Part shown: one piece after another, positions 26,717 to 30,452 of the stretch | How the letters are laid out: every line of letters begins with the position of its first letter | Position numbering within the stretch: position 1 is the stretch's first letter | IMG/VR virus record: IMGVR_UViG_3300032116_000057 | Location: 1-64,000 of that record | Origin: a virus | Strand: one strand, 5' to 3' | Length of the DNA: 64,000 nt | Made by a program: the position numbers and the translations under genes | Notes under the pieces: model-generated | Seen by the model: the letters and a program-made list of their open reading frames with translations, nothing else | Database searches by the model: none | What the model was told of the DNA's origin: nothing

Positions 26717-26766
26717 TGTAATGACCAACAAGGTCCCCGCGAAGTTTTTGCTGCGCAATGGGGAAG

Positions 26767-26821
26767 AGCCCCTTCAATTTATAGTTGCTCGACTATAAGT
26801 TGAAGGGGCTTATTTTTTTTT
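26767..26821 (+). terminator. Strong intrinsic terminator ending first early unit
   Basis: 20-bp stem agccccttcaatttatagtt/gactataagttgaaggggct then T9. Confidence 0.85.
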
Positions 26822-28825: not shown

Positions 28826-28975
28826 TTCCGCCTAGTAGATGCATGCATCGAAAGGAAGGGAGTCGTAACCAACGACTATAAATAAGGGGTAAACGGGAAT
28901 GGGAATTGCCCGGCTACCAATAAGTGCGTTACATTCCTATTACAGACAGTAATAGATGTTATTGCATGGGGCGAA
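28826..28975 (+). ncRNA. Candidate multi-stem ncRNA C
   Basis: cgcct/gggcg closure, agtcgt/acgact, ggta-cggg/cccg-tacc, acat-ctattac/gtaatag-atgt. Confidence 0.45.
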
Positions 28976-28979
28976 TGCC

Positions 28980-29013
28980 TGAGTCCTGAGCATGACTCAC
29001 TAAAAACTGCTTA
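28980..29013 (+). ncRNA. Small H-type pseudoknot motif, copy 2
   Basis: tgagtc-CTGAGCAT-gactca..AAAAAC-TGCTTA. Confidence 0.65.
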
Positions 29014-29019
29014 TAGATT

Positions 29020-29288
29020 CTTGGAGACACATTGAATAGGCTGTTGATTATCACCGAGAGCTGAGTATGTATTCGGGAGACTATGTCTGAATACAAAGGG
29101 GGCGAAGAAGCATAAGGGTACGAACTATGGGGTCAGAGGCACCCAGTGGGTCACGTTAGTCCTCCCATAATGAGCGTAGATGCATAGTAAGAGACGCGAC
29201 CGAGACTATGTATGTAATTCTACAACGCAACAGAGGCCACGTTGTGAGTCTCACGATAATACCTTCAGTAATTCAATGTGTTTCCAAG
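29020..29288 (+). ncRNA. Candidate large structured ncRNA D (269 nt)
   Basis: 18-bp closing stem 29020-37/29271-88 (one G-U); internal attatc/gataat, tgtattcgg/ctgaataca, tatggg/cccata, gtaga-tgcatagt/actatgta-tctac, caacg/cgttg; no long ORF. Confidence 0.7.
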
Positions 29289-29295
29289 TTCAAGT

Positions 29296-29430
29296 TGGAT
29301 GGCAGCACGAACACTGCGTGTTCACGATTGTCCATACCCAATAACTGGGCTAGCAGTCTAATCTAGTCCGCCAATGTAGATGTCAAAGTTTACATTGGCA
29401 CGCTCGTGTTATCCATAGTGGGTAGCACGT
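29296..29430 (+). ncRNA. Tandem hairpin array
   Basis: gaacac/gtgttc, gggctag/ctagtcc, gccaatgtag/ttacattggc, cgtgttatcca/tgggtagcacg. Confidence 0.5.
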
Positions 29431-29445
29431 GGCAGAAAGGCACAC

Positions 29446-29739
29446 ATGATACTGAGAAAGAAGAAAGTTCTCAAACTGATTGAAGACATGATGCTTCGTT
29501 CTGAGATAGATGCTCAGGACTTAGACGACATGCACAGTCGTGCCTACCACTCTGGAGTCATTGACGGAATGGGAGACATTCTCTATGCTCTATCACCAAA
29601 TAGAGCAAGAAGGTTCCCCATTTCTATTCATTGGTTCGAAGAAGACGAGCAAGTATCCAAAAAAGAACTTGCCCGCATTCGAGAAGCAGAGAGGGAACGC
29701 ACGTTCGAGTATCTCAATCGTGAGAAAGAGGTAATCTAA
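29446..29739 (+). CDS. Hypothetical early protein
   Basis: AGAAAGG SD. Confidence 0.7.
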   Translation: MILRKKKVLKLIEDMMLRSEIDAQDLDDMHSRAYHSGVIDGMGDILYALSPNRARRFPISIHWFEEDEQVSKKELARIREAERERTFEYLNREKEVI

Positions 29740-30452
29740 TGATTATCAATACCTATCAAGAAGCGGTCGACTGGTTAGCAGGCGGTCGCAAAAAGTGGGA
29801 ACGCCCACTTTACACTCGTGGACTACGGCTTCGCAAAACCCAAGCAAATCCAAAAGACATCGAAGTCTTTTATCCTTGGACTAATCAAGCAGTTGTCGTA
29901 TTCCATCCAGATGACACAATAACAATACAGGCTGGACTTGGACGAACAAGGTGGGGTGGGTATTACAACCCCCTCTATTCTTGGAGTGTTCGAGAAGTAA
30001 TTCGAATGTATTCAGGAATTACTAGTTTGTATCAAAGAAACAATAAGTTTCACATTGTGTTAGCTGATGCAACAAGAAAACCACCAAAGATACAAAAGTG
30101 CAGGCGCTGTCATGGCGCTGGACTTGTCGATGGCTATTGCACTATTCCGTATTGTCATTCGCTGGGCTCTGAAGAGTGCGATAAAACAACTCTCATGCCC
30201 GCTACAATTTCAAAACTGAATGGCGGATGGCACAGACACAAGTGTGTTCATGGTTTAAGTACAAACCATTACACAACAAAAACAGAGAAGTGCTTTGGTT
30301 GTAACGGTTATGGTAAGAAAGACTATGGCAGTCAGTTAGTAACTATGCTATGGGACGGAACACCTTTGCGATTACAACACGGCACTCTTGTTAATAACAA
30401 ACCAAGCGAACTAGAGAAAGCGATAGCAGCATATGTCCCAAACATCAGTTGA
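29739..30452 (+). CDS. Hypothetical protein with DnaJ-like CxxCxGxG zinc-binding repeats
   Basis: CRRCHGAG and CFGCNGYG. Confidence 0.65.
   Translation: MIINTYQEAVDWLAGGRKKWERPLYTRGLRLRKTQANPKDIEVFYPWTNQAVVVFHPDDTITIQAGLGRTRWGGYYNPLYSWSVREVIRMYSGITSLYQRNNKFHIVLADATRKPPKIQKCRRCHGAGLVDGYCTIPYCHSLGSEECDKTTLMPATISKLNGGWHRHKCVHGLSTNHYTTKTEKCFGCNGYGKKDYGSQLVTMLWDGTPLRLQHGTLVNNKPSELEKAIAAYVPNIS

What the first reader, a model, noticed from the sequence alone, without database searches (positions are those of the whole stretch)
29020..29288. 269-nt multi-branched RNA D with 18-bp closing helix
cttggagacacattgaat pairs with attcaatgtgtttccaag (one G-U) across 233 nt. It encloses an extension stem and at least four hairpins joined by purine-rich linkers (aagggggcgaagaagcataaggg). 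This size and complexity are typical of functional large ncRNAs. It begins 7 nt after pseudoknot copy 2.
Basis: partly seen in the sequence, partly recalled or inferred. Interest (0 to 1): 0.75.

Follow-up and report, generated by a model that had tools for sequence, protein, structure and literature searches.

The report
New structured RNA in lake phages
The 269-nt stretch is a real, conserved, intricately folded noncoding RNA found only in one group of about 100-kb freshwater phages; it matches no described RNA family and its job is still unknown.

Summary
The 18-bp helix is at 29020-29037/29271-29288. Only one other inverted repeat of that quality exists in the window, and none appeared in 20 shuffles.

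It is a new RNA family. I found 31 distinct homologs in related uncultured freshwater phage contigs, whose terminase is closest to Streptomyces phage BRock. Conservation starts and stops at the ends of RNA D.

A 63-pair model is 94.7% paired. 47 pairs show double compensatory changes (0 of 500 shuffles reach this; slid controls 31-43% paired). G-U cells outnumber A-C cells 222 to 18, so the + strand folds. No reading frame is conserved. Rfam 15 gives nothing.

- a rod of four helices (P1-P4);
- two stacked three-way junctions with three arms;
- a covarying loop-to-internal-loop pseudoknot;
- an apical loop whose central tetranucleotide switches between palindromes (CGCG, CAUG, CUAG, UGCA), the signature used for symmetric kissing loops in OLE and GOLLD.

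In most relatives P1 is 27-30 bp. There the RNA sits in a cassette (conserved 5' motif, RNA, strong terminator) that occupies different slots among early genes.

Best reading (about 0.45): an early, trans-acting stable RNA that may dimerise. Main rival (about 0.3): a cis-acting controller of downstream early genes. The scan noted a homolog in another genome (e1-5999357).

The parts
29020..29288 (+). RNA D, whole conserved unit in this genome (269 nt)
   Evidence: nhmmer and CM hits in relatives begin and end at these bounds. Single copy in the 104-kb genome.
29020..29037 (+). P1, 5' strand of the closing helix
   Evidence: 12 inner pairs are in the model; the 6 outer pairs were found by extension.
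29271..29288 (+). P1, 3' strand of the closing helix
29040..29059 (+). 5' strands of P2 (29040-43), P3 (29047-50) and P4 (29056-59), which extend the rod
   Evidence: Partners are 29266-69, 29257-60 and 29249-52. P2 has a G-U invariant in 31/31. P3 and P4 have pairs changed on both sides.
29249..29269 (+). 3' strands of P4, P3 and P2
29060..29103 (+). Arm 1: P5 (29060-62/29101-03) and P6 (29068-73/29090-95) with apical loop L6
   Evidence: All 3 P5 pairs and 5 of 6 P6 pairs change on both sides.
29104..29114 (+). Conserved purine-rich joiner (GAAGAAGC...)
   Evidence: Nearly invariant in alignments A1-A7.
29115..29119 (+). P7 5' strand, the helix that closes the inner three-way junction; partner 29236-29240
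   Evidence: Found by covariation between the two joiners. All 5 pairs change on both sides (helix 6). In this genome only 3 of the 5 positions pair.
29124..29171 (+). Arm 2: P8 (29124-32/29162-71) with inner hairpin 29142-44/29148-50 and an invariant GAGG
   Evidence: helices 7 and 8. One C-A mismatch in this genome.
29079..29083 (+). Pseudoknot, L6 side (GACUA); pairs with 29157-29161 (UAGUC) in the 3' internal loop of arm 2
   Evidence: Every homolog has a matching duplex. Compensatory variants occur in L055, L064, L002, L061, L090 and the window. Own-partner duplexes average -7.0 kcal/mol against -5.0 for swapped partners and -3.2 for shuffled loops.
29176..29223 (+). Arm 3: P9 (29176-81/29218-23) and variable hairpin P10 (29182-89/29204-11) with a 14-nt loop
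   Evidence: helices 9 and 10. In some relatives the middle of P9 is replaced by tandem G-A pairs.
29195..29198 (+). Self-complementary CGCG at the centre of the P10 loop
   Evidence: The same loop position reads CGCG, CAUG, CUAG or UGCA in 28 of 31 homologs.
29283..29299 (+). Possible alternative hairpin: the outermost P1 3' strand (29283-87) with a downstream copy of the 5' strand (29295-99)
   Evidence: 5 bp here and about 10 bp in relatives, where the downstream partner follows changes in P1.

Best explanation
RNA D is a genuine noncoding RNA gene module of a clade of about 100-kb freshwater tailed phages. It is read from the + strand together with the early genes. It folds on its own into a compact shape. 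A long rod (P1-P4) brings the two ends together. Two stacked three-way junctions carry three arms. Arm 1 and arm 2 are tied together by a loop-to-internal-loop pseudoknot. Conserved purine-rich joiners line the junctions. Shown here: the fold, its conservation, the strand, the absence of coding, and the cassette-like behaviour in relatives. Inferred: the RNA acts in trans as a stable early product. The long closing duplex (18 bp here, 27-30 bp in relatives) sets it apart from the flanking message and is a likely substrate for a double-strand-specific RNase such as RNase III, which would release it. The folded core is a binding surface for a still unknown host or phage partner. The palindromic tetranucleotide in the P10 loop lets two copies pair loop to loop into a symmetric dimer. 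I put about 0.95 on 'real, selected RNA structure' and about 0.45 on the trans-acting, excised, dimerising reading as a whole.
For: Conservation coincides with the RNA bounds while the flanks diverge. There are 31 distinct homologs at 132-277 bits. 63 pairs are 94.7% paired; 47 show double changes; 0 of 500 shuffles reach this; slid controls are 31-43% paired. G-U/U-G cells number 222 against 18 A-C/C-A. No frame is open across homologs and there is no 3-base periodicity. The pseudoknot covaries. The RNA sits next to different genes in different relatives, which argues against a leader for one gene. In most relatives it has its own conserved 5' motif and a strong hairpin-plus-U-tract terminator, the build of an independent unit. 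P1 reaches 27-30 bp in 29 of 31 homologs. The P10 loop centre switches among four palindromes. The same kind of switch was used as covariation evidence for symmetric kissing loops in OLE and GOLLD (PMC12286853).
Against: No partner was identified: genes that co-occur with the RNA in complete genomes simply follow phylogeny. Three homologs (L012, L017, L010) have no palindrome in the P10 loop and L090 has only a weak, off-centre one, and CGCG alone is weak evidence. In relatives the next gene starts right after the terminator with no room for a promoter, and its Shine-Dalgarno sequence lies between the RNA and the terminator hairpin; this fits a cis role. The window copy lacks the 5' motif, the outer P1 and the U-tract terminator. 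RNase cleavage is pure inference.
Confidence: 0.45

Rival explanations
1. Cis-acting control element of the early operon. The folded RNA governs whether RNA polymerase or ribosomes proceed into the next early gene. It could do this by read-through of the terminator that follows it (put-like processive antitermination or attenuation). It could also do it by bringing an upstream C-rich anti-Shine-Dalgarno tract next to the downstream Shine-Dalgarno sequence.
For: In most relatives the order is: conserved motif ending in UUCCCCGCGAA, RNA D, a downstream copy of the P1 5' strand that can pair with the P1 3' strand, an AGAGAAAGGGG-type ribosome site, a 13-20-bp hairpin with U-tract, then AUG at once. 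The C-run of the motif is complementary to the G-run of the ribosome site, and in the window's RNA-less copy the two are predicted to pair directly. Orientation is always that of the genes. Junction complexity is typical of ligand- or protein-binding aptamers.
Against: The downstream gene differs between relatives (at least five different genes). A P1 of 27-30 bp is far too stable to toggle against a 10-bp alternative. The motif-to-ribosome-site pairing is invariant, so it has no covariation support. The window and its nearest relative L002 lack the motif and the terminator, and L002 also lacks the alternative partner.
Confidence: 0.3
2. Only a processing and stability signal: a long duplex cut by RNase III, as between phage T7 early genes, with the interior a passenger.
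For: A long, nearly perfect duplex lies in a polycistronic early region. After a cut, the outer 3' strand could refold with its downstream partner into a 5' hairpin.
Against: Selection acts on the whole interior: all ten helices, the pseudoknot and the unpaired joiners are conserved or covary. That is far more than a cleavage site needs.
Confidence: 0.1
3. A DNA-level element: a miniature inverted-repeat mobile element, or a single-strand DNA structure used in replication.
For: It has terminal inverted repeats of 18-30 bp. Its position among early genes varies. There is a filled versus empty site: the L005 clade carries RNA D between the motif and the terminator upstream of the 26875-ORF homolog, whereas the window has motif and terminator there with only about 15 nt between them.
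Against: There is one copy per genome. No target-site duplication was seen. G-U outnumbers A-C 222 to 18, and internal helices and a pseudoknot covary, which end recognition by a transposase would not require. No transposase is nearby.
Confidence: 0.05

Closest known systems
OLE, ROOL and GOLLD (large ornate bacterial and phage RNAs that form RNA-only homo-oligomers)
   Same: An orphan, highly structured noncoding RNA. It is phage-encoded, as ROOL and GOLLD often are. It has a pseudoknot and many covarying helices. A hairpin loop has a palindromic core that switches between palindromes, as described for OLE L9.3 and GOLLD L21a (PMC12286853).
   Different: Much smaller (270-290 nt, against about 600 nt by my recollection for OLE and ROOL and over 800 nt for GOLLD). 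No sequence or structure match in Rfam. No tRNA genes anywhere in the genome, whereas ROOL and GOLLD often lie near tRNA islands. Oligomerisation is only inferred.
raiA motif RNA
   Same: Size class (about 200 nt), branched fold, unknown function, abundant in Gram-positive lineages including Actinobacteria (from my own knowledge and PMC12968392 as listed).
   Different: No Rfam match. Phage-borne rather than chromosomal. The long closing rod is absent from raiA as far as I know.
Phage T7 RNase III processing sites
   Same: A long duplex inside a polycistronic early transcript, with a hairpin left on the product.
   Different: T7 sites are simple hairpins of about 50-60 nt (my knowledge). RNA D has a conserved 230-nt core.
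HK022 put RNA and riboswitch or attenuator leaders
   Same: A structured RNA in early transcripts directly upstream of a terminator, orientation-specific. In relatives the P1 strand has an alternative pairing partner.
   Different: put is about 70 nt with two hairpins (my knowledge). Riboswitches have short switchable P1 helices and functionally coherent downstream genes. Neither holds here.
phi29 pRNA
   Same: A phage RNA that multimerises through loop-loop pairing.
   Different: pRNA loops are complementary to each other rather than self-complementary. It works in the packaging motor. No Rfam match.

Membership tests
Any Rfam 15 family (includes ROOL, GOLLD, OLE, raiA, HEARO, 6S, Ms1, group I introns, riboswitches, self-cleaving ribozymes, pRNA) | Covariance-model match at or near the family's gathering score | tested here: not met
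   No match at gathering thresholds in the 64-kb window. Nothing overlapping RNA D with a plausible family at E up to 10 in the window, in the L005 cassette or in the distant homolog L090.
ROOL / GOLLD | Length of about 600 nt or over 800 nt, and frequent position near tRNA islands in phages | tested here: not met
   269 nt here and about 290 nt in relatives. ARAGORN finds no tRNA in the window or the whole genome.
RNA-only symmetric homo-oligomers (OLE-like) | Self-complementary loop whose adjacent central nucleotides covary while staying palindromic | tested here: inconclusive
   Four palindromes occur at the P10 loop centre in 28 of 31 homologs. L090 has only a weak off-centre palindrome and L012, L017 and L010 have none. 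Independent events are few. Assembly itself is not testable here.
6S / Ms1 RNA polymerase decoys | Rod-like duplex with a large central open-promoter-like bubble | tested here: not met
   The conserved structure is branched, with two three-way junctions and a pseudoknot.
Riboswitch or attenuator | Aptamer followed by an expression platform with mutually exclusive pairings | tested here: inconclusive
   Relatives have an alternative partner for the P1 3' strand and a terminator-like hairpin. P1 is 27-30 bp, and the window lacks the terminator.
Riboswitch or attenuator | Functionally coherent downstream genes | tested here: not met
   At least five unrelated downstream genes follow the RNA across relatives.
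Group I intron | Interrupts a gene whose exons join into one frame | tested here: not met
   Flanking ORFs are separate genes that also occur apart from the RNA in relatives. No Rfam intron match.
MITE-like mobile element | Multiple copies per genome with target-site duplications | tested here: not met
   Single copy in six complete genomes. No direct repeat at the ends.
RNase III substrate | About two turns of nearly perfect double-stranded RNA that is cleaved by the enzyme | not testable with these tools
   The duplex length is met (18 bp here, 27-30 bp in 29 of 31 homologs). Cleavage cannot be tested.
Small protein gene | Conserved open frame and codon periodicity | tested here: not met
   Every frame has stops in most homologs. 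Column variability by phase is 0.216, 0.212 and 0.205.

The most novel reading that the evidence does not exclude
RNA D is a compact (under 300 nt) phage RNA that assembles into a symmetric RNA-only dimer or larger complex through its palindromic P10 loop. Made early in infection, it acts as a decoy or sponge for a host factor or small molecule. That would make it a small, tractable relative in kind of the OLE, ROOL and GOLLD assemblies, carried as a movable promoter-RNA-terminator cassette.
Probability: 0.25. Interest if true: 0.8.

Novelty: new variant of a known kind. Interest (0 to 1): 0.62.

Why it matters
Large structured RNAs of phages are few, and none has a known function. This one has several practical advantages.
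- It is small enough for chemical probing and cryo-EM.
- It has a well-determined secondary structure with a pseudoknot.
- It carries a simple, mutable signature of self-association.
- It occurs both as a self-contained cassette and, in this genome, embedded without its own promoter-like motif and terminator, which gives natural variants to compare.

It also shows that the early region of these uncultured actinophage-like lake phages carries RNA genes, not just small orphan proteins.

Tried and rejected
- Rfam at gathering and permissive thresholds gave nothing.
- blastn against GenBank phages gave no match.
- Single-protein locus searches with the two flanking ORFs gave nothing. The AAA+ ATPase gene gave the relatives instead.
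- A pattern scan of 185,579 prokaryote genomes gave one Bradyrhizobium hit, which the CM rejects. No host or prophage copy was found.
- A scan of viral contigs for the 5' motif gave 9 extra places, none with RNA D; these are chance matches.
- A first motif search in genomes used a wrong spacer and found nothing. It was corrected.
- Gene co-occurrence: G000 ORFs present in the 5 other RNA-positive complete genomes (G012-G016) and absent from 6 RNA-negative ones gave a short list, including the ORF just downstream. That ORF also occurs in RNA-negative contigs, so the list reflects phylogeny, not partnership.
- A P10-loop pairing with the CGCG of the 5' motif was rejected, because the motif does not change when the loop does.
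- A GUGA/UCAC mini-hairpin and a GGGGCU/AGUCUC hairpin proposed by RNAalifold were rejected in favour of P4 and P7, which covary.
- GNRA-receptor and K-turn readings were considered by eye and not supported.
- Coding was rejected.

Full report
**Setting.** The window is the first 64 kb of a complete 104,454-bp IMG/VR phage record. It encodes an SPP1-type portal, a terminase, a family A DNA polymerase and a class II ribonucleotide reductase. It also encodes a CobS-like AAA+ ATPase with a vWA partner. The terminase is closest to Streptomyces phage BRock at 52% identity. An actinobacterial host is therefore likely but not shown. RNA D lies in a 620-nt gap (28826-29445) between two small orphan ORFs on the + strand of the early region.

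**Observation.** The 18-nt arms are exactly where stated, with 17 Watson-Crick pairs and one G-U across 233 nt. The window holds only two inverted repeats of this quality within 400 nt, and 20 shuffles held none. The stretch folds at -83.8 kcal/mol, z = -3.3 against dinucleotide shuffles.

**Homologs.**
- Direct DNA and flanking-protein searches failed.
- The ATPase gene recovered 25 related loci from freshwater viromes.
- nhmmer with the whole gap hit 10 distinct contigs. In nearly all of them the match covers only positions 199-463 of the gap, which is RNA D itself.
- A covariance model (R1) and pattern scans of viral and metagenome contigs raised the set, and a locus search with the conserved downstream protein added one distant member, L090. 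The final set is 31 distinct sequences.
- Six complete genomes of more distant relatives lack the RNA. L088, from another complete relative, also shows no match, but only a 14.7-kb locus of it was searched.
- One genome-collection hit was chance.

**Not coding, and strand.** No frame is open across homologs, and variability has no 3-base period. Among 1953 pair cells, 222 are G-U or U-G and 18 are A-C or C-A. The + strand is therefore the folding strand.

**Structure.** RNAalifold on 11 sequences already gave 35 of 68 pairs with compensatory changes. I refined the fold with a helix-level covariation scan and by inspection. I then rebuilt the model (R2) and realigned (A7). The counts are:
- 63 pairs in 10 helices, 94.7% of cells paired;
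- 47 pairs changed on both sides;
- none of 500 shuffles reaching any measure;
- partners slid by 1-3 columns only 31-43% paired.

The architecture in window coordinates is:
- the rod P1 to P4;
- arm 1 (P5 and P6);
- a purine-rich joiner;
- P7, which pairs the two long joiners and closes an inner junction;
- arm 2 (P8 with an inner hairpin and an invariant GAGG);
- arm 3 (P9 and the variable P10).

P7 was not in any automatic prediction. It shows at least six different complementary sequence pairs across the family.

**Pseudoknot.** The apical loop of arm 1 is complementary to the 3' internal loop of arm 2 in every homolog. It reads GUAACUAU with AUAGUUAC in one subgroup and GGCUAA with UUAGUC in another, and GACUA with UAGUC in the window. 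Two-sided changes occur in L055, L064, L002 and L090; L061 and the window differ on one side only, turning a G-U wobble into a Watson-Crick pair. Own-partner duplexes average -7.0 kcal/mol, against -5.0 for swapped partners and -3.2 for shuffled loops.

**Palindromic loop.** The centre of the P10 loop reads CGCG in 20 homologs, CAUG in 6, CUAG in 1 and UGCA in 1. L090 has a weak case, and three others (L012, L017, L010) have none. Adjacent nucleotides cannot pair within one hairpin loop. Conserved self-complementarity through sequence change therefore points to pairing between two molecules. This is the argument used for OLE L9.3 and GOLLD L21a in PMC12286853. The number of independent changes is small, so I treat this as a lead.

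**Context in relatives.**
- The RNA always lies on the gene strand but next to different genes. In most relatives it follows a homolog of ORF 27284. In this genome it follows ORF 28460. In the L005 clade it lies before a homolog of ORF 26875.
- In 29 of 31 homologs P1 continues for a further 13-17 pairs, giving 27-30 bp. The window and L002 have the short form.
- Main-clade copies are preceded by a nearly invariant motif of about 27 nt that ends in UUCCCCGCGAA. It is present once per genome.
- In about nine of the relatives examined, including the L005 clade, they are followed within about 25 nt by a 13-20-bp G+C-rich hairpin with a U-tract.
- The build is that of an independent unit inserted between genes.
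- The window has a degenerate motif and a 20-bp, T9 terminator at about 26719-26812 with only about 15 nt between them. That is the slot that holds RNA D in the L005 clade.
The motif position there (G013:17136-17161) abuts its coordinates.

**Hints of a cis role.** Downstream of P1, relatives carry a copy of the outer 5' strand that can pair with the outer 3' strand. This partner follows sequence changes in P1. Next comes a ribosome-site-like purine run, then the terminator-like hairpin, then AUG immediately after the U-tract. The C-run of the 5' motif is complementary to that purine run. In the window's RNA-less copy the two are predicted to pair. This supports the main rival but does not establish it. 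The pairing does not vary, P1 is too stable to toggle, and the downstream genes differ.

**Partner search.** Comparing complete genomes with and without the RNA gave a list of co-occurring ORFs. The most suggestive one, the ORF just downstream, is also present in contigs without the RNA.

**Verdict.** The family is new to Rfam 15. Function is open. I favour a trans-acting, excised, possibly dimeric early RNA (0.45) over a cis-acting controller (0.3), a mere processing site (0.1) or a DNA-level element (0.05).

Noticed in passing
window 26719-26812: A degenerate copy of the 5' motif that precedes RNA D in relatives, followed after about 15 nt by a 20-bp hairpin with T9. The same slot (upstream of the 26875-ORF homolog) holds RNA D in the L005 clade, so this looks like an empty cassette. 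L002 has the same arrangement.
   Followed up: partly
L005:5692-5718, L006:4874-4900 and about 20 other loci: A nearly invariant motif of about 27 nt (GTAATACACC...TTCCCCGCGAAG), duplicated in part in some loci, directly 5' of P1. It occurs once per genome and is not a repeated phage promoter. It could be a dedicated promoter or an anti-Shine-Dalgarno tract.
   Followed up: partly
L012:3755-3945: In L012 the same motif lies 2.5 kb from RNA D and precedes a different, strongly folding stretch (-51 kcal/mol). This may be another RNA module in the same kind of slot.
   Followed up: no
L043, L052, L061, L064 and relatives, 20-85 nt after P1: The Shine-Dalgarno-like run lies upstream of the terminator-like hairpin, and the AUG of the next ORF (about 166 aa) follows the U-tract at once. 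The folded hairpin would therefore bring ribosome site and start codon together, as reported for T4 gene 38 (my knowledge).
   Followed up: partly
window 29739-30452: A 237-aa protein rich in invariant Cys and His, with no Pfam or PHROG match. It is conserved in all relatives at 35-50% identity and is always preceded by a homolog of ORF 29446.
   Followed up: partly
   Followed up: no
whole genome G000: No tRNA or tmRNA gene in 104 kb, although the closest cultured relatives by terminase are large Streptomyces phages.
   Followed up: yes
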